From Asaia bogorensis (lineage in GTDB: Bacteria; Pseudomonadota; Gammaproteobacteria; Burkholderiales; Burkholderiaceae_C), in contig CALRUM020000008.1 in NCBI GenBank assembly GCA_943371375.1, positions 9,164-73,163 of the forward strand: 64,000 nucleotides of DNA. The letters run 5' to 3'. The stretch's first letter is position 1. Every line of letters begins with the position of its first letter. Of this stretch, positions 54,553 to 64,000 are shown in pieces. The notes beneath the pieces were generated by a model. That model was not told where the DNA came from. It searched no databases and saw nothing but the letters and a program-made list of their open reading frames with translations. The position numbers were made by a program, and so were the translations under genes.

Positions 54553-57225
54553 GTGGCCACATCATCAAGTAAACGCGGGCAATTCTGGCGGGCAGACTGG
54601 TTTGTTGGCGTTCTTGTGGTGCTGGCAGTATTGGCGCTGCACAGTGCCAGTGATTTTTTTGCCACCCTGGAGCGCCGTTATTACGACTTTGCGAGCACCA
54701 GCACCTCGCGCCAGCCCTCTGACCGAATCGCCATCATTGCCATTGACGACCAGAGCATTGCCAACATAGGCCGCTGGCCCTGGCCGCGCGATGTGCACGC
54801 ACAGCTGATAGACCAGCTGGCCGCAGCCAAAGCCAAAACGATTGCACACACGGCCTTCTTTTTTGAGCCCCAAACCGACCGGGGGCTGGTGTTCATCCGG
54901 AAGATCAAGGAAGCCCTGGGCCCGGCAGGCGACCCGGCCTTGTCCCAGGGTGGGCTCAGCGATCAGCTCGGCAAGGTGATTGCAGATGCCGAGGTGGCGC
55001 TGGATACCGACGCCAAGCTGGCCGCCAGCATGGGCAAAGCCGGCAATGTGCTGGTTCCTTCCGTGTTTGTGCTGGGTGAGCCGCAGGGCAAGGCGGACAA
55101 TCCGCTGCCGGCCTACGCCCTGAAAAGCGCGGTCGAGGAGCCGGGCGGCTTTTCCCTGCCGGCCATTCGCGGACAGCAGCCGATTGAGATCATCGGCAGC
55201 AGCGCAGCGGGTGTTGCACACCTGAACCAGCTGACCGATGTGGACGGGGCGGTGCGTCAGGAGCCCCTGCTGATCAACTACTACGGCAAGGCGGTGCCCT
55301 CCATGGGGTTGCTGGCGGCCGCCAAAAGCCTGAACCTGTCGGCCGCCGATATCCGGCTCAACGGCGGTGAATCGGTCCAGCTTGGCAAGCTGCGTATCGC
55401 CACCGATGAATCTGCGTTGATGCTGCCCCAGTTCTACAAGGGCCGCGACGGCAAACCAGCCTTTGCGGTGGACTCCTTTTACGACGTGTTGACCGGAAAA
55501 ATTCCGGCCAGCAAGTACACCGACAAGATCGTGATCATAGGCGCCACGGCCGCAGGTGTCGGCACGCAGTTCCCGACGCCGGCCGGTGCCGGTCTGTCGC
55601 CGGCGGAGACCATTGCCCACATCACTTCGAGCATTCTGAGCGAGCACTTCATCGTCCAGCCCGCCTGGGGTATCTGGGCCATGCTGGTGGTTTTGCTGGT
55701 GGTGGCGGCCTATCTGATTGCCGGCCTGCCGCGCCTGTCTGCCGGCAAGGCGGCGGTGGTGACGCTGCTGATGTTTGTGCTGTTGCTGGTGCTGGAGTTC
55801 GGCCTGTTGTCGGCAGCGGCAACCTGGCTCAAGCTGGTATTTCCGGCCGCGCTGCTGGTGATAGGGCATCTGGCGCTGACCACCAAGCGCTTCCTCATGA
55901 CCGAGGCCGGAAAACTCAAGTCGGACGAGGAGTCGGCCGAAACCAACCGCATGATGGGTTTGGCCCTGCAAGGGCAGGGGCAGCTGGACATGGCGTTTGA
56001 CCGTTTTCGCCGCGTGCCTTTTACCGATGCGCTGATGGACAACATGAACAACCTGGCGCTCGATTTTGAGCGCAAGCGCCAGTTCAACAAGGCCCAGGCC
56101 GTGTATGAATACATGGCCACTTACAACAAGAACCACAAAGACCTTCAGTCCAAACTCAACCGCGCCAGGAACCTGTCTGAAACCGTCATTCTGGGTGGCG
56201 GTGGCGCACATCCGGGCGGGACCATGCTGCTCGACGGCGGCGGGGTTGAAAAGCCGATGCTCGGGCGCTATCAGGTCGAAAAAGAACTTGGCAAGGGTGC
56301 GATGGGCGTGGTCTATCTGGGTAAAGACCCGAAGATTGGGCGGGTGGTGGCGATCAAGACCATGGCCTTGAGCCAGGAGTTTGAAGGTGATGAGCTGACG
56401 GACGCCCGGGAACGGTTTTTCCGGGAAGCCGAAACCGCCGGGCGCCTGCAACACCAGAACATCGTGACCATTTTTGATGCCGGCGAGGAGCATGACCTGG
56501 CTTATATCGCCATGGAGTTTCTCAAGGGCAAGGATCTGGCAGATGTGACCAAAGACGGCCACTTGTTGCCCATTCCCAAGGTGTTGTCGATTGTGGCGCG
56601 TGTGGCCGAGGCGCTGGCTTACGCTCACAAGCAAAATGTGGTGCACCGGGACATCAAACCCGCCAATATCATGTACGACCCTGACAGTGACACCGTCAAA
56701 GTCACCGATTTCGGCATTGCGCGCATCACCGATTCGAGCAAAACCAAAACCGGCCTGGTGCTGGGCACGCCGAGTTTCATGTCGCCCGAGCAGATTGCCG
56801 GCAAAAAAGTGGATGGACGCTCTGACCTGTATTCGCTGGGCGTGATGCTGTTCCAGATGCTGGCGGGTGTATTGCCTTTCCGGGGCGACTCCATGGCCGA
56901 GTTGATGTACAAAATTGCCAACGAAGCCGGGCCTGATATCCGCATCATCCGGCCCGAGCTGCCGGCCAGGCTGGCTGAGATTGTGGCCTTGTCCATCGGC
57001 AAAAAACCGGAGACCCGCTACCAGGATGGCGACCAGTTTGCGGCGGACCTGCGGGCCGTTGTTGCGGCATGGGCTGCCGGCCCGGTGGCGGCGGCCGATG
57101 CCGGCACCCCGGCGCCTGGTGCCCCGCTTGCAGACTCTGAAAAGACAGTGGCATTTTCCACGGCCGGGCAGCCTTCATTTGAAAAAACAGTAGCCGCCCA
57201 GACCTCCACAGATTCAAAGCCATAA
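54553..57225 (+). CDS. CHASE2-domain membrane Ser/Thr protein kinase (Hanks type, RD class)
   Basis: CHASE2 IAIIAIDDQSIANIGRWPWPRDVHA...DVDGAVR; 3 TM helices; TPR-like segment; LGKGAMGVVY, VAIK, HRDIKPAN, DFG, GTPSFMSPE. Confidence 0.93.
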   Translation: MATSSSKRGQFWRADWFVGVLVVLAVLALHSASDFFATLERRYYDFASTSTSRQPSDRIAIIAIDDQSIANIGRWPWPRDVHAQLIDQLAAAKAKTIAHTAFFFEPQTDRGLVFIRKIKEALGPAGDPALSQGGLSDQLGKVIADAEVALDTDAKLAASMGKAGNVLVPSVFVLGEPQGKADNPLPAYALKSAVEEPGGFSLPAIRGQQPIEIIGSSAAGVAHLNQLTDVDGAVRQEPLLINYYGKAVPSMGLLAAAKSLNLSAADIRLNGGESVQLGKLRIATDESALMLPQFYKGRDGKPAFAVDSFYDVLTGKIPASKYTDKIVIIGATAAGVGTQFPTPAGAGLSPAETIAHITSSILSEHFIVQPAWGIWAMLVVLLVVAAYLIAGLPRLSAGKAAVVTLLMFVLLLVLEFGLLSAAATWLKLVFPAALLVIGHLALTTKRFLMTEAGKLKSDEESAETNRMMGLALQGQGQLDMAFDRFRRVPFTDALMDNMNNLALDFERKRQFNKAQAVYEYMATYNKNHKDLQSKLNRARNLSETVILGGGGAHPGGTMLLDGGGVEKPMLGRYQVEKELGKGAMGVVYLGKDPKIGRVVAIKTMALSQEFEGDELTDARERFFREAETAGRLQHQNIVTIFDAGEEHDLAYIAMEFLKGKDLADVTKDGHLLPIPKVLSIVARVAEALAYAHKQNVVHRDIKPANIMYDPDSDTVKVTDFGIARITDSSKTKTGLVLGTPSFMSPEQIAGKKVDGRSDLYSLGVMLFQMLAGVLPFRGDSMAELMYKIANEAGPDIRIIRPELPARLAEIVALSIGKKPETRYQDGDQFAADLRAVVAAWAAGPVAAADAGTPAPGAPLADSEKTVAFSTAGQPSFEKTVAAQTSTDSKP

Positions 57226-57235
57226 GAACAACACG

Positions 57236-58021
57236 ATGATTTACGAGATTTGCACCCAGACCGACCCTGGATTGGCGCGGGACAACAACGAAGACTCGGT
57301 GACCTTTGATGCCGCCACCCGGCTCTGCATACTGGCCGACGGAATGGGCGGCTACAACGCAGGCGAGATCGCCAGCGGCATGGCCACGGCTTTCATCAAA
57401 TCCGAGCTCGGACGCTGGCTGTCTCAGGCCGGTAGAAACGCCAACAGCAAGGAAGTCCGGCGCGCCATGGAGATTTGCGTGGAAAACGCCAATCATTCCA
57501 TTTTTAACGCCGCCAATTCCAATCCGCAGTATTCCGGCATGGGTACAACGCTGGTGGTCGGCGTCTTCCAGAACACGCGGCTGATGCTGGGCCATATCGG
57601 GGATTCGCGCTGTTATCGCTGGCGGGCGGGCCAGCTGCAGCAGATCACCAAGGACCACTCCCTGCTGCAAGAGCAGCTCGATGCCGGGCTGATTACCCCG
57701 GAGCAGGCCCTGACCTCCATGAACAAAAACCTGGTGACCCGGGCTTTGGGTGTGGAGGATGCAGTGTTGCTGGAAGTCAACGAACACCGTGTGGAGCTGG
57801 GCGATATTTACCTGATGTGCTCCGACGGCTTGTCGGACATGATCAGTGACGATGCGATTGCGGCTATTCTATTGGGCGCAAGGTCGCTCGATCAGACTGC
57901 CAGGGAACTGGTGATTGCTGCCAACGAGGGCGGCGGCAGGGACAATATTTCGGTTTTGCTGGCGCAGGCCGGTGAAGCTTCGGTCAAACGCGGGCTACTA
58001 TCGAGGATGTTGGGGAAGTAG
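57236..58021 (+). CDS. PP2C-family Ser/Thr phosphatase (Stp1/PrpC-like)
   Basis: RDNNED, ADGMGG, MGTT, HIGDSRCY, TKDHS, CSDGL, GGRDNIS. Confidence 0.93.
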   Translation: MIYEICTQTDPGLARDNNEDSVTFDAATRLCILADGMGGYNAGEIASGMATAFIKSELGRWLSQAGRNANSKEVRRAMEICVENANHSIFNAANSNPQYSGMGTTLVVGVFQNTRLMLGHIGDSRCYRWRAGQLQQITKDHSLLQEQLDAGLITPEQALTSMNKNLVTRALGVEDAVLLEVNEHRVELGDIYLMCSDGLSDMISDDAIAAILLGARSLDQTARELVIAANEGGGRDNISVLLAQAGEASVKRGLLSRMLGK

Positions 58022-58061
58022 CCGGAGCGCGTGCCCCATTAAAAATAGACAGGAGTCGGCC

Positions 58062-58724
58062 ATGCCGAAAATGATCGTCTCGATTGACGGTGTCGTGATC
58101 AAGGAGGTCCAGCTGACCAAGGACCGCACGTCTTTGGGACGCAGGCCTTATAACGACATTGTGATTGACAACCTCGCCGTCAGCGGAGAACACGCTGTTT
58201 TGCAGATGTCCGGCAATGAAGTCTTTGTGGAGGATCTGAACAGCACCAACGGTACCTACCTGAACGGCAAAGCGGTCAAAAAGCAGCAGCTCAGCAACGG
58301 TGACACCGTGGAGATCGGCAAGTACAAGATCAAGTACGTGAACGAGGCTGCAACGCCAGGCTTCGAAAAAACCATGATCATCAAGGCCGGCTCCGCCGGC
58401 TTGGTGGCCCCTGCCGCTGGCGCCGCAGCTGCGAGCGCCCCGGCACCTGCTCCGGGTACAGGCGGCGCTGCGGCGATCAAGGTCATGTCGGGCGCTGCGG
58501 CTGGCCGGGAGGTCGCGCTGGTCAAGGTGGTCACCACGATCGGCAAGCCGGGGGTGGCGGTGGCCGCCATTACCAAGCGGCCCCATGGTTTTGTGGTGGC
58601 GCACGTCGAGGGTGACAACAAACCCACGCTGAACGGCACGCCCATTGGCGTGGAGCCGGTCCCCCTGAAAAATGGTGATCTGCTGGAACTGGCGGGCACC
58701 CAGATGCAATTCGTGCAGCGCTGA
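58062..58724 (+). CDS. FHA-domain protein (canonical N-terminal FHA + degenerate C-terminal FHA-like domain)
   Basis: GRRPYNDIVIDNLAVSGEHA...DLNSTNGT canonical FHA; second unit TTIGKPG...TLNG...LKNGDLLELAG; AGGAG RBS. Confidence 0.9.
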   Translation: MPKMIVSIDGVVIKEVQLTKDRTSLGRRPYNDIVIDNLAVSGEHAVLQMSGNEVFVEDLNSTNGTYLNGKAVKKQQLSNGDTVEIGKYKIKYVNEAATPGFEKTMIIKAGSAGLVAPAAGAAAASAPAPAPGTGGAAAIKVMSGAAAGREVALVKVVTTIGKPGVAVAAITKRPHGFVVAHVEGDNKPTLNGTPIGVEPVPLKNGDLLELAGTQMQFVQR

Positions 58725-58786
58725 CCGGCTGGTTTCCCGCCCCCGGTCGGAAAGCACCCCGCAAGCGCGGCACTTCAAGAGGCCTT

Positions 58787-61036
58787 ATGCGACTTCTTTT
58801 ACGGCACTGGCCCCGCATTGCCGTCACACTGATTCCTCTGCTGTTTGCCCTGCTGCATGCCGGCGGTGTCATGCGCATCGACGTTCTGCAGCGCCTCGAC
58901 GACATCCTGTATGACGCGCGGCTGCGCGCCACGATGCCGCGTACGCTGGACGAGCGTATTGTCATTGTCGACATCGACGAAAAAAGCCTGGCCGAAGTCG
59001 GGCGCTGGCCCTGGGGGCGCGACAAGCTGGCGGTGCTGGTGCAGGAGTTGCTGGACAGGCAGCAAGCGGCCTTGCTGGGCTTTGACGTGGTGTTTGCCGA
59101 GGCCGATGACAGCTCGGGCCTGAAGCGGCTCAAGCAACTTGCACGGGAAGAGCTGAAGGACCAGCCGGCCTTCACCGAGAAGCTGAACCAGCTCCAGGCG
59201 GGCCTTGACTACGACGCGGTATTCGCAAAGTCGATGGAGAAGCGGCCGGTGGTACTGGGCTACTACTTCACCAGTGACAGGGATGGCCGCATCAATGGCA
59301 CCTTGCCGGCGGCGGTGATGGACCGCAATGCGCTCAAGGGAAGGCCGATCCGGTTTACAACCTGGAACGGCTACGGCTCGAACATTGACACCGTTGCAAA
59401 AGCAGCACCGATGGCCGGGTTCTTCAACTCCATCACCGAGGGCGACGGGGTGGTGCGCTCCATACCCCTGCTGGCTGAATACAAAGGCGGCTATTACGAG
59501 TCACTGTCGCTGGCCATGTTCCGCATGCTGGTGGGCCTGCCCGGCATTGAGCCCGGTTTTCCCCAGGAAAGGTTTCTCACGCGCGGGTATCAGGGACTGG
59601 AAAGCATCCTGCTCAAACAGGGCAACAAAACCCTGGCTATCCCGGTCGATGACCGGGTGGCCACGCTGGTGCCTTTCCGGGGACCTGGCGGCGCCAGTGG
59701 CGGCTCCTACAGGTACGTCTCGGCGTCTGACGTGCTGTCCAAGCGCGTACCGGCCGAACAGCTCAAGGGCAAGATTGTCCTGATTGGTACCACCGCGCCG
59801 GGCCTGCTCGATTTGCGTGTGACACCGGTTGGAGAAACCTATCCGGGCGTCGAGACCCACGCCAACGTGATTTCCGGATTTCTCGATGGCAAGGTATTTG
59901 TCAAGCCGGACTATGCGGTTGGCTTTGAAGTGGTCATACTTTTTCTGTCGGGGCTGACCCTTGCATTGGCGTTGCCGATGTTGTCTGCGCCCAAAGCGGT
60001 GGCGACCAGCGTGGCTGTGATTGCGGCGCTTGTCGGTCTCAATTTCTGGCTTTATTCGGCCTACGGTCTGGTGCTGCCGCTTGCCACTGCGCTGGTCATG
60101 GCGTTCACCGCGTTTGCGCTGAACATGAGTTACGGCTATTTTGTCGAGAGCCGTTCCAAGCGGGAGCTGGCCAACCTGTTCGGGACCTATGTGCCGCCCG
60201 AGCTGGTGGATGAAATGGTCAAGGACCCCGACAGCTACACCATGAAGGCGTCGGCCAAGGAGCTGACGGTGATGTTCTGTGACATGCGCGGTTTCACCAA
60301 GATGTCAGAGACCATGGAGCCGACGCAGCTTCAGGCATTGCTCAACAGCGTGTTCAGCCGGCTGACGGATCTGATCCGCGGCAATCGCGGCACGATCGAC
60401 AAATACATGGGTGACTGTGTCATGGCTTTCTGGGGCGCGCCTGTGGAAACGCCCGATCATGCCAGCCTGGCGGTCAAGACCTCGCTGGAGATGGTGCTGG
60501 CCATACGTCAGCTCAACGAAGAGCACCGGGCCAAGGGCCTGCCCGAGATTGGCATTGGCATCGGGCTCAACACCGGCAGCATGTGTGTGGGTGACATGGG
60601 CTCTGACATCCGGCGCAGTTATACCGTCATCGGCGACGCCGTCAATCTGGGCTCCCGCCTGGAGGGACTGTCAAAAACCTACGGGGTTGATACCGTGGTC
60701 AGCGAATCCACCCGCCGGCTTTCCACCGACTTTGCATGGCAGGAGCTCGACAAGGTGCGGGTCAAGGGAAAAGACCAGGCTGTGGCCATCTTTTGCCCTG
60801 TGGCTGCATTGGGCCAGCTCGGCAAGGAACAGGCCGCCGAACTCAAGGAGTGGGGTTTGGCGCTCAAGGCCTACCGCGATCAGGCTTGGGATGCTTGCGA
60901 CGTGCACTTGCTGAATTTACAGCGCATGAATGCGCAAAAGTACCTTTACCGGCTGTATGCTGAGCGGGTAGCCTCCATGAGGCTTTTGCCGTTTGACCCC
61001 GAGTGGGACGGCGCGACCAACTTCGAAACCAAATAA
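58787..61036 (+). CDS. CHASE2-domain class III adenylate cyclase
   Basis: CHASE2 IVIVDIDEKSLAEVGRWPW; 3 TM helices; catalytic FCDMRGFT, IDKYMGD, YTVIGDAVNLGSRLEG (Lys/Thr ATP-specifying residues, Asn/Arg intact). Confidence 0.93.
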   Translation: MRLLLRHWPRIAVTLIPLLFALLHAGGVMRIDVLQRLDDILYDARLRATMPRTLDERIVIVDIDEKSLAEVGRWPWGRDKLAVLVQELLDRQQAALLGFDVVFAEADDSSGLKRLKQLAREELKDQPAFTEKLNQLQAGLDYDAVFAKSMEKRPVVLGYYFTSDRDGRINGTLPAAVMDRNALKGRPIRFTTWNGYGSNIDTVAKAAPMAGFFNSITEGDGVVRSIPLLAEYKGGYYESLSLAMFRMLVGLPGIEPGFPQERFLTRGYQGLESILLKQGNKTLAIPVDDRVATLVPFRGPGGASGGSYRYVSASDVLSKRVPAEQLKGKIVLIGTTAPGLLDLRVTPVGETYPGVETHANVISGFLDGKVFVKPDYAVGFEVVILFLSGLTLALALPMLSAPKAVATSVAVIAALVGLNFWLYSAYGLVLPLATALVMAFTAFALNMSYGYFVESRSKRELANLFGTYVPPELVDEMVKDPDSYTMKASAKELTVMFCDMRGFTKMSETMEPTQLQALLNSVFSRLTDLIRGNRGTIDKYMGDCVMAFWGAPVETPDHASLAVKTSLEMVLAIRQLNEEHRAKGLPEIGIGIGLNTGSMCVGDMGSDIRRSYTVIGDAVNLGSRLEGLSKTYGVDTVVSESTRRLSTDFAWQELDKVRVKGKDQAVAIFCPVAALGQLGKEQAAELKEWGLALKAYRDQAWDACDVHLLNLQRMNAQKYLYRLYAERVASMRLLPFDPEWDGATNFETK

Positions 61037-61068
61037 CAGGCTGCCCGCACATCAGGCCCCCCAAAACG

Positions 61069-61860
61069 ATGAAAGTCCGTGTACTCGGTTGTTCAGGAGC
61101 GATTGCCAAGGGTTGCCGGACAACGTCGTTCCTGCTCGACCACGATGTGCTGGTGGACGCCGGGACCGGCGTGGGAGACCTCACGCTCGATGAGATGCGC
61201 GGCATTGACCACGTTTTGCTCACCCATTCCCATCTGGATCACGTCGCGGCCCTGCCCCTGATGGTGGATGCGATTGCGTCGCAGCGCACCACCCCTATCC
61301 AGATTCACGCCTTGCAGGGCACCATCGATGCGTTGAAGACACATATCTTCAACAACACCATCTGGCCGGACTTTTCGAGAATTCCCACGCCGGAAGCCCC
61401 GTTTGTGAGCTTTCATCCGCTGACCATAGGCCAGACCCTTTTGCTTGCAGGAAAGTATGTCGAGGTATTGCCGGCGGTACACACGGTGCCGGCAGTCGGT
61501 TATGCGGTGGCTGCCGGTGCCGGCTACTGGATATTCACCGGTGACACCGAGCGTAATCCGGCGCTTTGGGCGCGGATCAATCAGCTCAATGTGGCCATGC
61601 TGGTGATTGAAACCGCTTTCAGCAACCGCGAGCGTGATTTGGCCAAGCGCAGCCTGCATCTGTCCCCGCATGCGCTTGCCATTGAGCTGGACTGCATCGA
61701 CAAGGGCAGAAATTACCCGATTTACATCACCCATACCAAGCCGGCAGAGACCGACTTGATCATGGCTGAAATACAGCGTTTCGACCAGACCGCACCGTTT
61801 GGTCCCAACGTCACCCACGACATACGCTGGTTGCGCGCAGGTCAGGAGTTTGAACTATGA
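61069..61860 (+). CDS. Metallo-beta-lactamase-fold 3',5'-cyclic-nucleotide phosphodiesterase (class II-like)
   Basis: LVDAGTG, THSHLDH, HTVP, FTGDT, HLSP, ITHTKP; directly after the cyclase. Confidence 0.8.
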   Translation: MKVRVLGCSGAIAKGCRTTSFLLDHDVLVDAGTGVGDLTLDEMRGIDHVLLTHSHLDHVAALPLMVDAIASQRTTPIQIHALQGTIDALKTHIFNNTIWPDFSRIPTPEAPFVSFHPLTIGQTLLLAGKYVEVLPAVHTVPAVGYAVAAGAGYWIFTGDTERNPALWARINQLNVAMLVIETAFSNRERDLAKRSLHLSPHALAIELDCIDKGRNYPIYITHTKPAETDLIMAEIQRFDQTAPFGPNVTHDIRWLRAGQEFEL

Positions 61861-64000
61861 GTGCCGTTCTCCAGCGCGACCCCGAAGACGAGTTTTTTGA
61901 CTCCCAGATGTTGCCGCCGCAAGAGCGGGGCGTGACCTTTGAAGCGCTGTATTTCCGCCAGCTGCAGCTGGTGACCAACCGCATCCATGAAACTGAAAAC
62001 ATCGACCAGATCATGCTGGAGGCCAGCCAGGACATCTGCAAGCTTTTTAATGCGGACAGGCTGACCCTGTATGCGGTCAACGAAGACCGCAGCTCCATCA
62101 TCTCCAAGGTCAAGACCGGCCTGAACACCAGCCGTGACCTGAAGCTGCCCATCAGCGCGCAAAGCATCGCGGGTTATGTGGCGCTGTCGAAGGCCATGGT
62201 GAACATTGCCGACGTCTATGACGACGAGGCACTCAAGAAAATCCATCCGAACCTGAGTTTCCTTCAGGAAGTGGACAAGCGTTCTGGCTACCGCACCAAA
62301 CAAATGCTGGTCGCGCCGGTGATGGATGGCAACACCTTGTACGGTGTTCTGCAGGTCATCAACAACCGCAGCGATCAGCCGTTTGCCAAGCTTGAGGAAG
62401 ACGGCGCGCAGCAGCTGTGCAAGACACTGGGCATTGCCATACGACAGCGCATGCAAAGGGCCGAGGACGGCCAGCGGCGCCGGGCTACCAAATACGACGG
62501 ACTGGTCGCCGAAGGCGTTCTGTCGCAGGACGAGTTGCAGCAATGCATCCAGAAGGCGCGGGAGGACGGGCAGTCGGTAGAACACCTGCTGATGGCTGAC
62601 TACCGCATACGGCCCGTGCAAATTGGCGCATCGCTGAGCAAATTTTTTGGCGTTCCCTACGAGGGTTTCAATGCCGGACGCATTCGTTCTGAAATGCTGC
62701 ACGGTCTTCTGAAACGCCATTTTGTTGAGCAGCAAAGCTGGATGCCGCTGGAAGAAACACCCGATGGCCTGGTCATCATGTGTGTGGACCCCGAGGCCGT
62801 GCGTGGCGCCAGGGTGGTGCCCCAGGTGTTTCCGAAGATTGGCAAGTTTGCCTATCGCGTCACCACTCAGACAGAATTTGACGAAACACTGGCGCAACTT
62901 TTTGGGGCGGGCAATGACGGCGGCTCCATTGACCAGTTGTTGGCCGACATGGATTCGCCGCTTGAAAACGATGCCGGTGACGACTCGGCACTGGAGTCAG
63001 CCGCTGCGGACAACGAGCTGGTCAAGTTTGTCAACAAAGTCATCATTGATGCGTACAAGCAGAAAGCGTCCGATATCCACATCGAACCGATGCCGGGCAA
63101 GGCCAAGACCGGCATCCGCTTTCGCATTGACGGCACCCTGCTGCCCTATATTGAAGTGCCGGCGCAGTTTCGCCAGGCCATGGTCACGCGCCTCAAGATC
63201 ATGTGTGACCTGGACATTTCTGAAAAACGCAAGCCGCAAGACGGCAAGATCAAGTTCAAGAAATACGGGCCGCTCGACATCGAGCTGCGTGTCGCCACCA
63301 TCCCGTCGGCCGGCGGCGTGGAGGATGTGGTCATGCGTATCCTGGCGGCGGGTGAACCCATACCGCTGGAGAAGTTGGGCCTCACAGCGCATAACAAGGA
63401 GCGTCTGGAGAAAACGGTTTCCAAGCCTTATGGCCTGTTTTATGTGTGCGGCCCGACTGGCTCGGGCAAAACCACCACGCTGCACTCGATCCTGAAGTTT
63501 TTGAACACGCCGGACACCAAAATCTGGACCGCCGAAGATCCGGTGGAGATCACGCAGAAAGGTTTGCGCCAGGTCCAGATCAACAAAAAGGCCGGCATAG
63601 ACTTTGCCCTGGTGATGCGGGCTTTTTTGCGGGCTGACCCGGACATCATCATGGTGGGCGAGTCGCGTGACAAGGAGACGGTTTCGATGGGGGTGGAGGC
63701 GTCGCTCACAGGGCACATGGTGTTTTCCACCCTGCATACCAATTCAGCCCCCGAATCGATCACCCGTCTGCTGGATATGGGCATGGACCCCTTCAACTTT
63801 GCCGATGCCTTGCTCGGCATATTGGCCCAGCGCCTGGCGAAAAAACTGTGTGATTGCAAAGAGGCGTATCAGCCAAATGCCCAGGAAGTCAAAGAGTTCA
63901 TCAAGGAGTATTCGGAAGAACTGCGGCACACGGAAGACTGGAAGGCCGACCCGGGCGGTGAAGCGCAAAAGCTGCTGGATGACTGGATGGCCCGTTACGG
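61857..64000 (+). CDS. GAF-domain-fused GspE/PilB-family secretion/pilus ATPase; 3' truncated by window edge (absent from the ORF track)
   Basis: Manual translation from ATG 61857 (ATGA overlap with the PDE stop): GAF VDKRSGYRTKQMLVAPV...GVLQVINN; RFRIDG, RKPQDG, GPTGSGKT (63450), TAEDPVE, LRADPDIIMVGESRD, GHMVFSTLHTN. Confidence 0.92.
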   Translation, partial: MSAVLQRDPEDEFFDSQMLPPQERGVTFEALYFRQLQLVTNRIHETENIDQIMLEASQDICKLFNADRLTLYAVNEDRSSIISKVKTGLNTSRDLKLPISAQSIAGYVALSKAMVNIADVYDDEALKKIHPNLSFLQEVDKRSGYRTKQMLVAPVMDGNTLYGVLQVINNRSDQPFAKLEEDGAQQLCKTLGIAIRQRMQRAEDGQRRRATKYDGLVAEGVLSQDELQQCIQKAREDGQSVEHLLMADYRIRPVQIGASLSKFFGVPYEGFNAGRIRSEMLHGLLKRHFVEQQSWMPLEETPDGLVIMCVDPEAVRGARVVPQVFPKIGKFAYRVTTQTEFDETLAQLFGAGNDGGSIDQLLADMDSPLENDAGDDSALESAAADNELVKFVNKVIIDAYKQKASDIHIEPMPGKAKTGIRFRIDGTLLPYIEVPAQFRQAMVTRLKIMCDLDISEKRKPQDGKIKFKKYGPLDIELRVATIPSAGGVEDVVMRILAAGEPIPLEKLGLTAHNKERLEKTVSKPYGLFYVCGPTGSGKTTTLHSILKFLNTPDTKIWTAEDPVEITQKGLRQVQINKKAGIDFALVMRAFLRADPDIIMVGESRDKETVSMGVEASLTGHMVFSTLHTNSAPESITRLLDMGMDPFNFADALLGILAQRLAKKLCDCKEAYQPNAQEVKEFIKEYSEELRHTEDWKADPGGEAQKLLDDWMARY

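What the first reader, a model, noticed from the sequence alone, without database searches (positions are those of the whole stretch)
54553..64000. Six-gene signalling operon coupling Ser/Thr phosphorylation and cAMP turnover to a GAF-PilB/GspE motor
Seen in sequence: six co-directional genes with gaps of 10, 40, 62 and 32 bp and a final ATGA overlap. They encode a CHASE2 kinase, PP2C, FHA protein, CHASE2 adenylate cyclase, MBL-fold phosphodiesterase and GAF-ATPase, and the catalytic motifs of all the enzymes look intact. Established: kinase/PP2C/FHA form a writer/eraser/reader set; class III cyclase plus PDE form a cNMP writer/eraser pair; GAF domains of the PDE2/5 and CyaB type bind cNMP. 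Inference: this is a self-contained two-channel circuit in which two CHASE2 receptors control an extension ATPase through pThr and cAMP. I do not know of a characterised system with this composition. It is the best candidate for an undescribed system in this window.
Basis: partly seen in the sequence, partly recalled or inferred. Interest (0 to 1): 0.88.

Follow-up and report, generated by a model that had tools for sequence, protein, structure and literature searches.

The report
Signal-gated spare pilus motor operon
A Polaromonas genome carries, just upstream of its pilin gene, a conserved but unstudied operon. It couples a membrane kinase/phosphatase/FHA set and a cAMP-making/cAMP-degrading enzyme pair to an extra pilus-type motor ATPase with a built-in cAMP-type sensor, so the motor is probably switched directly by cAMP and threonine phosphorylation.

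Summary
There are six co-directional genes with gaps of 10, 40, 62 and 32 bp and an ATGA overlap. They encode a CHASE2 Hanks kinase, a Stp1-type PP2C, an FHA protein, a CHASE2 class IIIb adenylate cyclase, a class II phosphodiesterase and a GAF-MshEN-like-PilB/GspE ATPase (801 aa, ending 262 bp past the window). The catalytic motifs are intact.

The order is kept at 45-62% identity in seven other families of the same GTDB order and in most of 80 Comamonadaceae loci, nearly always beside a type IVa pilin. The genome also has canonical pilBCD, a TfpB-type ATPase, an MshE-like ATPase and PilT/PilU, so this is an extra motor. GAF-ATPases form their own clade.

New here:
- The module is modular and decays. 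Relatives keep only PP2C-FHA-ATPase, PDE-ATPase or other subsets, so it is not self-contained.
- A short (F)[ED]KT motif recurs in the FHA linker and the kinase tail, and tends to be lost where the kinase is lost. It is a candidate phospho-acceptor in a GarA/OdhI-like switch.

No published study was found. Ligand binding, co-transcription and the pilus role remain untested.

The parts
54553..57225 (+). CHASE2 receptor Ser/Thr (Hanks) kinase, 890 aa. CHASE2 is at about 54616-55707 and the kinase domain at about 56269-57072, followed by an unconserved C-terminal tail.
   Evidence: Pfam CHASE2 179 bits and Pkinase 184 bits. VAIK, HRD, DFG and SPE were read. Orthologues are 50-60% identical in other families.
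57145..57189 (+). Two copies of the short motif [SF]EKTV in the kinase tail (Thr865 codon 57145-57147; Thr879 codon 57187-57189). They are candidate autophosphorylation and FHA-docking sites.
   Evidence: 49 of 62 kinase orthologues carry 1-5 [ED][KR]T motifs in the last 110 residues. That is 78 hits in 6820 tail residues against 8 in 48849 other residues.
57236..58021 (+). PP2C-type Ser/Thr phosphatase, 261 aa.
   Evidence: NCBIfam Stp1_PP2C_phos 245.4 bits against a cut-off of 230. Pfam PP2C_2 and PP2C. It is present in every variant of the beta-clade module except PDE-ATPase.
58062..58724 (+). FHA protein, 220 aa. It has an N-terminal FHA domain (residues 1-95), a disordered linker with the FEKTM motif (Thr104 codon 58371-58373) and a conserved all-beta C-terminal domain (residues 136-220).
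   Evidence: Pfam FHA 88 bits. GR, SxxH and NG are invariant in alignment A2. In the AF2 model the linker 98-134 has pLDDT below 50 and both domains are at about 85-90. The nearest folds are GarA and OdhI, TM 0.8-0.9 and 34-35% identity.
58787..61036 (+). CHASE2 receptor class IIIb adenylate cyclase, 749 aa. CHASE2 is at about 58856-59947 and the cyclase domain at about 60251-60781.
   Evidence: Pfam CHASE2 191 bits and Guanylate_cyc 91 bits. Alignment to P. aeruginosa CyaB 3R5G and to Cya2 shows D, K, D, T, N and R in place. These residues are kept in the six distant beta-clade orthologues aligned.
61069..61860 (+). Class II (metallo-beta-lactamase fold) cyclic-nucleotide phosphodiesterase, 263 aa.
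   Evidence: Pfam PDEase_II 48.7 bits against a cut-off of 23.7. It has the HSHLDH motif. The best PDB match is yeast PDE1 4OJV, including the FNxxIWPD stretch.
61857..64000 (+). GAF-MshEN-like-PilB/GspE family ATPase. The first 714 of 801 aa lie in the window, and the gene ends at window-equivalent 64262. GAF is at about 61962-62456, the degenerate MshEN/N1 region at about 62493-62909 and Walker A at 63450-63473.
   Evidence: Pfam T2SSE 383 bits, GAF 46 bits and MshEN 30 bits. It scores 403 bits on PilB TIGR02538 (cut-off 676) and 374 bits on GspE (cut-off 630). The GAF matches 1YKD at E 1e-25. AF2 model and Foldseek. The GAF-ATPases form a monophyletic clade.

Best explanation
The six genes form one signalling module whose output is a fourth PilB-like ATPase of the cell. 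It is an accessory assembly motor that acts on the type IVa pilus, whose major pilin gene lies just downstream.

Shown by sequence analysis:
- All the enzymes look catalytically competent.
- The ATPase carries a cNMP-class GAF domain in front of an N1 region that has lost the c-di-GMP (MshEN) motif.
- The cyclase has ATP-specifying residues, and the PDE is class II.
- The module is conserved across the order.
- Each sub-module (PP2C-FHA, PDE, cyclase-PDE) is found next to the ATPase on its own in some lineage. The ATPase is therefore the hub.

Inferred, channel 1: an unknown periplasmic cue at the CHASE2 cyclase raises cAMP locally and the PDE lowers it. cAMP binds the GAF domain and allosterically sets the activity or hexamer state of the ATPase, in the way c-di-GMP does through MshEN in MshE/PilB/PilF.

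Inferred, channel 2: this would work like GarA/OdhI.
1. The CHASE2 kinase autophosphorylates the (F)EKT threonines of its tail.
2. These recruit the FHA protein.
3. The kinase then phosphorylates the FEKT threonine in the disordered FHA linker.
4. That pThr folds back on the protein's own FHA domain and releases, or engages, the ATPase.
5. PP2C resets the switch.

The pilin itself is transcribed separately from a sigma-54 promoter.
For: Domain content and motifs.

Gene order STK-PP2C-FHA-AC-PDE-ATPase:
- It is conserved at 45-62% identity in 7 of 16 other families of the order and in 13 of 25 genomes of the genus.
- It holds in most of 80 named Comamonadaceae loci (Polaromonas, Rhodoferax, Ramlibacter, Caenimonas, Acidovorax and others), with a pilin following the ATPase.
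- A match to the GAF/N1 region of the ATPase is present in 41 of 197 good genomes of the family.

Hub argument: the variants PP2C-FHA-ATPase, PP2C-FHA-PDE-ATPase, STK-PP2C-FHA-ATPase, PP2C-FHA-AC-PDE-ATPase and PDE-ATPase all exist.

GAF domain:
- The pocket motifs (ADRLT, SKVKTG, SIAG, VDKRSGYRT, GVLQVINN[KR]..PF) are conserved in all variants.
- They align with the CyaB2 and PDE2A ligand-contact stretches.

ATPase identity:
- The GAF-ATPases form one clade, apart from this genome's PilB, TfpB-type and MshE-like paralogues (paralogue identities).
- In another class, a CHASE2 cyclase homologue (33-40% identical over its full length) and a GAF-HD phosphohydrolase lie near the GAF-ATPase.

Phospho-motif:
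- 60 of 61 loci with the cis kinase keep [FYV][ED][KR]T in the FHA linker.
- 7 of 14 loci without the kinase have lost it (Fisher p = 1.3e-5, not corrected for phylogeny).
- The motif is enriched about 70-fold in kinase tails.
- It lies in a predicted disordered linker.
- The FHA fold is closest to GarA/OdhI.

Pilin promoter: sigma-54 promoter TGGCAT-N5-TTGCT upstream of the pilin.
Against: - There is no experimental datum on any component. No ligand binding has been shown.
- Fold comparison alone does not separate cNMP GAFs from the PtsP or phytochrome GAFs.
- GAF pocket residues stay conserved where no cyclase or PDE is adjacent. The local cyclase is therefore not required, and the ligand is not proven to be cAMP.
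- No platform (PilC-like) gene, PilM-type gene or secretin gene lies in the cluster. The ATPase fails the PilB and GspE equivalog cut-offs.
- Its first zinc knuckle reads CxC, not CxxC.
- Within the genus the module is often absent or decayed. One genome keeps PP2C-FHA-PDE without the ATPase, so these three may have a target other than the ATPase.
- Pilin adjacency within Comamonadaceae may partly reflect inherited synteny (sucCD-TerC-pilA).
- The motif-versus-kinase association is not corrected for phylogeny.
- Co-transcription was not tested. The terminator scan is uninformative.
Confidence: 0.5

Rival explanations
1. The ATPase is not an extension motor of the type IVa pilus. Either it serves another filament or secretion process, or it acts as a regulatory paralogue that competes with PilB, TfpB or PilT for the platform and so brakes assembly under signal control.
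For: - It scores below the PilB and GspE equivalog cut-offs.
- It forms a separate, old clade.
- No pilC or pilM genes lie in the cluster, and canonical pilBCD plus a TfpB-type ATPase already exist.
- Its first zinc knuckle is atypical, and the stretch between the Cys pairs is about 30 residues longer.
- Members of the clade in other classes have no pilin nearby.
Against: - The Walker A, Asp, Walker B and His boxes are intact.
- Its best structural relatives by sequence are the extension ATPases PilB and PilF.
- A pilin lies within about 4 kb in most beta-clade families, outside Comamonadaceae too.
Confidence: 0.2
2. These are two or three independent signalling cassettes that merely share a neighbourhood. 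The kinase/PP2C/FHA trio would control something else, for example central metabolism as GarA/OdhI do. The cyclase/PDE pair would feed a general cAMP pool read by other receptors.
For: - The FHA domain is closest to GarA/OdhI, and in Comamonadaceae the cluster sits directly after sucCD.
- One genome keeps PP2C-FHA-PDE after losing the ATPase.
- The genome has many other cyclases and kinases, some of them fused.
Against: - In the other families examined, PP2C-FHA stay glued to the ATPase, in most of them with no sucCD within 10 kb.
- PDE-ATPase pairs exist without the trio.
- The 4-bp PDE/ATPase overlap and the tight spacing argue for one unit.
- The FHA protein scores below the OdhI cut-off and lacks the N-terminal ETTS-type motif.
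Confidence: 0.15
3. The GAF domain binds a ligand other than cAMP (cGMP, another nucleotide or a metabolite), or it serves only as a dimerisation module. The adjacent cyclase/PDE pair would then act on the motor only indirectly.
For: - The GAF is conserved where no cyclase or PDE is adjacent.
- Foldseek gives PtsP and phytochrome GAFs scores similar to those of cNMP GAFs.
- In another class the neighbouring cyclase homologue is degenerate in at least one lineage, and the neighbouring hydrolase is of HD (HD-GYP-like) type.
Against: - Sequence similarity is specific to cNMP-binding GAFs: 1YKD at E 1e-25, against a best non-cNMP match near 1e-3 to 1e-6.
- It has an NKFDE-like motif and IAG / [ST]G[YF]RT contact stretches.
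- The cyclase has Lys/Thr ATP specificity.
Confidence: 0.15

Closest known systems
c-di-GMP-gated assembly ATPases with an MshEN domain (V. cholerae MshE, M. xanthus PilB, T. thermophilus PilF)
   Same: It is a PilB/GspE-family hexameric ATPase whose N-terminal region carries a second-messenger sensor that would set motor activity. PilB and PilF are the best PDB matches of the ATPase part.
   Different: The c-di-GMP motif is degenerate: KYD stands in place of RLG, and there is no hit to the NCBIfam c-di-GMP motif model. An extra cNMP-type GAF domain precedes it. The predicted messenger is cAMP, with its own cyclase and PDE in the operon.
Threonine phosphorylation pathway of the P. aeruginosa H1 type VI secretion system (PpkA, PppA, Fha1)
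   Same: A membrane receptor Hanks kinase, a PP2C phosphatase and an FHA protein are encoded together with a secretion-type nanomachine component and are thought to gate its assembly post-translationally.
   Different: There are no T6SS genes here. The FHA protein scores 40.6 bits against a cut-off of 120 on the TagH/VI_FHA model. The sensor is CHASE2, and the presumed target is a PilB-like ATPase.
GarA/OdhI FHA phospho-switch of Actinobacteria
   Same: It is a small FHA protein whose FHA fold is nearest to GarA/OdhI. It carries a conserved Thr motif in a disordered segment next to the FHA domain, which suits an intramolecular pThr-FHA switch.
   Different: The motif is (F)EKT and lies C-terminal to the FHA domain, rather than ETTS at the N-terminus. 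There is a second all-beta domain. The protein scores below the OdhI cut-off (66 against 200 bits). The targets are unknown.
Accessory extension motor TfpB of Acinetobacter baylyi (two extension ATPases on one pilus)
   Same: It is a precedent for more than one PilB-type motor serving one type IVa pilus. This genome itself has a TfpB-type paralogue (889 bits against a cut-off of 850).
   Different: The GAF-ATPase is neither PilB nor TfpB, and it carries its own signalling genes.
cAMP control of type IV pili in P. aeruginosa (CyaB, CpdA, Vfr, Pil-Chp) and cyanobacteria (Cya1, SYCRP1)
   Same: cAMP from a membrane class III cyclase controls pili. The cyclase here shares the class IIIb Lys/Thr residues with CyaB.
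   Different: In those systems cAMP acts through a CRP-family transcription factor. Here the predicted receptor is the motor ATPase itself.
cAMP-binding GAF domains (Anabaena CyaB1/CyaB2, Leptospira Lcd1, human PDE10A)
   Same: The GAF sequence and model match these best, including an NKFDE-like motif.
   Different: The output domain is a PilB-type ATPase, not a cyclase, a diguanylate cyclase or a PDE.

Membership tests
Type IV-A pilus assembly ATPase PilB (TIGR02538) | Score above the equivalog cut-off (675.65 bits) | tested here: not met
   403.3 bits. This genome's real PilB on contig C5 scores 800.7 bits.
Type IV-A pilus assembly ATPase PilB (TIGR02538) | Walker A, Asp box, Walker B and His box; C-terminal tetracysteine zinc site | tested here: inconclusive
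   The boxes are intact: GPTGSGKT, EDPVE, DPDIIMVGE, LHTN. The Cys pairs read CDC ... CDKC, so the first knuckle is CxC, and the spacer is about 30 residues longer.
Type IV-A pilus assembly ATPase PilB (TIGR02538) | Encoded with pilC/pilD or next to pilA | tested here: inconclusive
   No pilC or pilD is adjacent; they lie with PilB on contig C5. A type IVa pilin lies downstream here and in most relatives.
Type II secretion ATPase GspE (TIGR02533) | Score above the cut-off (630.25 bits) | tested here: not met
   373.7 bits. No gsp genes are adjacent.
MshE-type c-di-GMP receptor (MshEN domain) | Tandem RLGxx(L/V/I)(L/V/I)xxG(L/V/I)(L/V/I)xxxxLxxxLxxQ motifs | tested here: not met
   The region reads KYDGLVAEGVLSQDELQQCIQKA, and the Arg-Leu-Gly is absent in all nine aligned orthologues. 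There is no hit to NF053729. The Pfam MshEN hit covers only residues 264-351.
cNMP-binding GAF domains (PDE2/5/6/10, CyaB1/2) | Specific sequence similarity, an NKFDE-type motif and conserved contact stretches | tested here: met
   1YKD at E 1.2e-25, PDE2A GAF-B at 6e-9 and PDE10A at 3e-8. The motif N-x-[KR]-x4-F-x3-[ED][ED], IAG and [ST]GYRT are conserved.
cNMP-binding GAF domains (PDE2/5/6/10, CyaB1/2) | Binds cAMP or cGMP | not testable with these tools
   This needs a binding assay or a structure.
Class III (IIIb) adenylate cyclase | Two metal Asp, a substrate Lys plus Thr (or Asp), and transition-state Asn and Arg | tested here: met
   FCDMRGFT, IDKYMGD, YTVIGDAVNLGSRLE aligned to CyaB 3R5G. 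Pfam 90.7 bits against a cut-off of 21.9.
Class II cyclic-nucleotide phosphodiesterase (PF02112) | HxHLDH signature on an MBL fold, and a score above the gathering threshold | tested here: met
   HSHLDH is present. 48.7 bits against a cut-off of 23.7. The best PDB match is yeast PDE1.
Stp1/IreP-family PP2C phosphatase (NF033484) | Score above the cut-off (230 bits) | tested here: met
   245.4 bits.
T6SS threonine phosphorylation pathway (TagH/Fha1, TIGR03354) | FHA protein above the cut-off, and T6SS genes in the neighbourhood | tested here: not met
   40.6 bits against a cut-off of 120.25. No T6SS genes lie within 10 kb.
GarA/OdhI (NF041660) | Equivalog score and the N-terminal ETTS phospho-motif | tested here: not met
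   66 bits against a cut-off of 200. The conserved Thr motif is FEKT and lies C-terminal to the FHA domain. The fold is nonetheless nearest to GarA/OdhI.

The most novel reading that the evidence does not exclude
GAF-fused PilB-type ATPases are an old clade found in several classes of Pseudomonadota. On this reading they are direct cAMP receptors, so cAMP rather than c-di-GMP is the allosteric switch of a pilus motor. In Betaproteobacteria a GarA-like FHA phospho-switch, written by a CHASE2 receptor kinase on an (F)EKT motif and erased by PP2C, has been added as a second gate on the same motor.
Probability: 0.4. Interest if true: 0.8.

Novelty: new variant of a known kind. Interest (0 to 1): 0.62.

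Why it matters
Type IV pilus motors are known to be gated by c-di-GMP, through MshEN or FimX-PilZ. cAMP is known to control pili only through transcription factors such as Vfr and SYCRP1. A motor ATPase that reads cAMP itself, and that is also under a receptor kinase/FHA switch, would be a new post-translational route from the envelope to pilus dynamics.

The module is common in environmental Betaproteobacteria. About a fifth of good genomes in this family carry it, among them cultured strains such as Polaromonas sp. JS666, Ramlibacter and Rhodoferax. It would also give CHASE2 sensors a first clear output.

The predictions are concrete: cAMP binding by residues about 36-200 of the ATPase, and phosphorylation of FHA-protein Thr104 and kinase Thr865/Thr879. 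They can be tested with standard biochemistry.

Tried and rejected
1. An 'LEKTV' motif just before the Walker A of the ATPase looked like a third copy of the phospho-motif. It is confined to Polaromonas and absent from the 58-62% identical orthologues, so I dropped it as a conserved site.
2. I asked whether the GAF-ATPase is the only PilB in some genomes. In 8 of 14 genomes that carry it, no hit passes the PilB cut-off. Every one of these nevertheless has another full-length PilB/GspE-type ATPase, in four checked genomes next to a PilC-like gene. The cut-off is too strict outside close relatives to conclude absence.
3. Fold search of the GAF model confirms the GAF fold but does not discriminate ligand class.
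4. Promoter and terminator scans are at background level inside the operon. There is only a weak hairpin after the ATPase.
5. RNA-seq evidence could not be sought.
6. The C-terminal 300 residues of the downstream TPR protein have no Pfam, NCBIfam or PDB match.
7. Six literature searches found no paper on this architecture or operon. The Ramlibacter genome paper only counts 'three PilB paralogs'.
Full report
**Observation**

The region 54553-64000 holds six + strand genes exactly as described. The gaps are 10, 40, 62 and 32 bp. A 4-bp ATGA overlap joins the phosphodiesterase and ATPase genes. Pfam and NCBIfam give the following:
- a CHASE2 + Hanks kinase (890 aa)
- a Stp1-family PP2C (245 bits, cut-off 230)
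- an FHA protein (220 aa)
- a CHASE2 + class III cyclase (749 aa)
- an MBL-fold class II phosphodiesterase (PDEase_II 48.7 bits, cut-off 23.7, motif HSHLDH)
- a GAF + MshEN + T2SSE ATPase

The window is contig C8:9164-73163 of a 3.95-Mb Polaromonas assembly. In the flanking DNA the ATPase runs to 801 aa and ends at window-equivalent 64262.

Upstream lie recA, recX, sucC, sucD and a TerC-family gene. Downstream, in order, lie:
- a 750-aa TPR protein
- a classical type IVa pilin (MKSMQKG/FTLIELM...)
- a 121-aa ORF
- minus-strand methyltransferase and GT8 genes
- a PglL/Wzy_C_2 O-oligosaccharyltransferase

The pilin has its own sigma-54 promoter, TGGCAT-N5-TTGCT.

**The parts**

The cyclase aligns with P. 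aeruginosa CyaB (3R5G) and Synechocystis Cya2. It has both metal Asp, the substrate Lys, a Thr at the second specificity position, and the Asn and Arg. This is a class IIIb adenylate cyclase pattern, and it is kept in distant orthologues.

The phosphodiesterase's only clear solved relative is yeast PDE1, a class II enzyme.

The GAF domain of the ATPase is specifically similar to cyclic-nucleotide-binding GAFs:
- the cAMP-binding tandem GAF of Anabaena CyaB2 (1YKD), E 1.2e-25
- PDE2A GAF-B, 6e-9
- PDE10A GAF-B, 3e-8
- PDE6 and PDE5

The stretches that contact the nucleotide in those proteins (IAG, [ST]G[YF]RT) and an NKFDE-like motif are invariant or nearly so across orthologues. An AF2 model of residues 30-380 (pLDDT 79.5) has a GAF fold. 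Its structural neighbours include PDE10A, cAMP-bound Lcd1 and CyaB2. They also include PtsP and phytochrome GAFs, so fold alone does not settle the ligand.

The helix that binds c-di-GMP in MshE is degenerate here, with KYD in place of RLG.

The ATPase boxes are intact. The first zinc knuckle reads CxC, and the spacer between the Cys pairs is about 30 residues longer than in M. xanthus PilB.

**Which motor is it?**

The genome also encodes:
- a true PilB (800.7 bits on TIGR02538) with pilC and pilD on contig C5
- a TfpB-type ATPase (889 bits, cut-off 850)
- an MshE-like ATPase inside a secretin/GspF-like cluster
- PilT/PilU

The GAF-ATPase is below both the PilB and GspE cut-offs (403 and 374 bits). 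In a maximum-likelihood tree of the ATPase cores, all GAF-fused ATPases form one clade (support 84/80). This covers 11 from this order and 11 from other classes of the phylum. The clade has two well-supported halves (97/99 and 99/97), and this genome's PilB, TfpB-type and MshE-like paralogues fall outside it. The fusion is therefore old, and this is a distinct subfamily.

**Conservation**

Full-length orthologues occur in 13 of 25 genomes of the genus and in 7 of 16 other families of the GTDB order. In those seven families the neighbours, at 45-62% identity, follow the order kinase-PP2C-FHA-cyclase-PDE-ATPase, complete in most and as subsets in the rest. A pilin usually lies within about 4 kb.

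A scan of species genomes found at least 587 loci. The best 80 are all Comamonadaceae (Polaromonas including JS666, Rhodoferax, Ramlibacter, Caenimonas, Acidovorax, Curvibacter, Hylemonella). Most show sucD-TerC-[six genes]-pilin-PglL. In an even sample of the family, 41 of 197 good genomes, from 37 of 166 genera, carry a match to the GAF/N1 region of the ATPase.

**The module is modular**

Clean sub-variants exist:
- PP2C-FHA-ATPase
- PP2C-FHA-PDE-ATPase
- kinase-PP2C-FHA-ATPase
- kinase-PP2C-FHA-PDE-ATPase
- PP2C-FHA-cyclase-PDE-ATPase
- PDE-ATPase alone, in one family

Within the genus there is a decay series:
- an empty site (sucD-TerC-pilin)
- a PP2C plus FHA remnant
- PP2C-FHA-PDE-pilin with the ATPase gone

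Two conclusions follow. First, each sub-module is found alone beside the ATPase, so the ATPase is the common partner. This supports two inputs converging on it. Second, the circuit is not self-contained: the sensors can be lost, and the GAF pocket stays conserved without a local cyclase. This genome has 11 cyclase-domain hits and 7 Hanks-kinase hits that could act in trans.

In another class, the GAF-ATPase lies near a CHASE2 cyclase homologue (33-40% identical over its full length, degenerate in at least one lineage). A GAF-HD phosphohydrolase also lies nearby. The cyclase link therefore looks older than the PP2C-FHA link.

**A candidate phospho-site**

The FHA protein has three parts:
- a canonical FHA domain, with GR, SxxH and NG invariant
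- a linker predicted to be disordered
- a conserved all-beta C-terminal domain

Its FHA fold is nearest to GarA/OdhI (TM 0.8-0.9, 34-35% identity).

Just after the FHA domain lies a short motif, FEKTM, that is at least 90% conserved (Thr104). Of 61 loci with the cis kinase, 60 keep [FYV][ED][KR]T there. Of 14 loci without the kinase, 7 have lost it, by deletion or by Thr-to-Pro/Ser change (Fisher p = 1.3e-5, not corrected for phylogeny).

The same motif recurs 1-5 times in the otherwise unconserved C-terminal tail of the kinase in 49 of 62 orthologues. In this genome the sites are Thr865 and Thr879. The motif is about 70-fold enriched in the tail over the rest of the protein.

I read these threonines as phospho-acceptor and FHA-docking sites of a GarA/OdhI-like switch. 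This is inference.

**Mechanism proposed**

See Best explanation. The shown steps are domain identity, motif integrity, conservation, modularity and the motif statistics. The inferred steps are:
- cAMP binding to the GAF domain
- the effect of cAMP on the motor
- phosphorylation at the EKT threonines
- the FHA-ATPase contact
- the use of the PilA pilus

**Known relatives and novelty**

The nearest known logic is the c-di-GMP-gated MshE/PilB/PilF ATPases, but the defining MshEN motif is not met. The kinase/PP2C/FHA trio resembles the T6SS threonine phosphorylation pathway and GarA/OdhI, and membership in either fails. TfpB of Acinetobacter is a precedent for a second extension motor.

Six full-text searches found no paper on this architecture or operon. 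Earlier notes of this scan on sister genomes reached the same cAMP reading. They are not independent evidence.

I class the finding as a new variant of a known kind: a second-messenger-gated pilus ATPase with a different messenger and an added phospho-switch.

**Limits**

There is no binding or genetic evidence. The motif association needs phylogenetic correction.

Noticed in passing
L009:3519-6736 (window-equivalent 64355-67572, just past the window end): In this genome and a minority of Polaromonas genomes, a TPR protein (750 aa; its C-terminal ~300 aa have no family match), the pilin and a 121-aa ORF travel together as a cassette between the ATPase and the PglL gene. Most relatives have the pilin alone. 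More distant TPR homologues also lie near the cluster in three other families (L040-L042).
   Followed up: partly
L009:5853-5869: There is a near-consensus sigma-54 promoter (TGGCAT-N5-TTGCT) about 65 bp upstream of the pilin start. The pilin is probably transcribed separately from the six-gene operon, as pilA is in Pseudomonas.
   Followed up: no
G000 contigs C5:157796-161633, C2:236223-238070, C23:38735-45076, C13:81037-82996: The genome has four PilB/GspE-class ATPases: PilB with pilC and pilD, a TfpB-type ATPase, an MshE-like ATPase in a secretin/TPR/GspF-like cluster, and the GAF-ATPase. It also has PilT/PilU.
   Followed up: partly
G000 C10:129034-130548, C1:216024-217361, C2:340867-342620: Hanks-kinase and class III cyclase domains occur elsewhere in the genome too. 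They lie in the same long open frame in two places and as neighbours in a third. Kinase-cyclase coupling is therefore a recurring theme in this organism.
   Followed up: no
L183, L184, L185 (same-genus genomes G001, G022, G007): There is a decay series at the same chromosomal site: sucD-TerC-pilin (empty), PP2C plus a C-terminal FHA remnant, and PP2C-FHA-PDE-pilin with the ATPase deleted.
   Followed up: partly
L166:286-4304 and L167:10989-15063 (other class of the phylum): Distant GAF-PilB ATPases (40% identical) lie near a CHASE2 cyclase homologue and a GAF-HD_5 (HD-GYP-like) phosphohydrolase. In L167 the cyclase homologue has lost both metal Asp and the substrate Lys.
   Followed up: partly
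L009:6824-12067 (downstream of the pilin): Two minus-strand methyltransferase-domain genes, a GT8-like gene and a + strand PglL/Wzy_C_2 O-oligosaccharyltransferase lie here. This is probably a pilin glycosylation island.
   Followed up: no
window 63846-63998 and beyond (ATPase residues about 664-730): In the beta-clade GAF-ATPases the first Cys pair of the zinc site reads C-D-C rather than CxxC. The stretch between the two Cys pairs is about 30 residues longer than in M. xanthus PilB.
   Followed up: no
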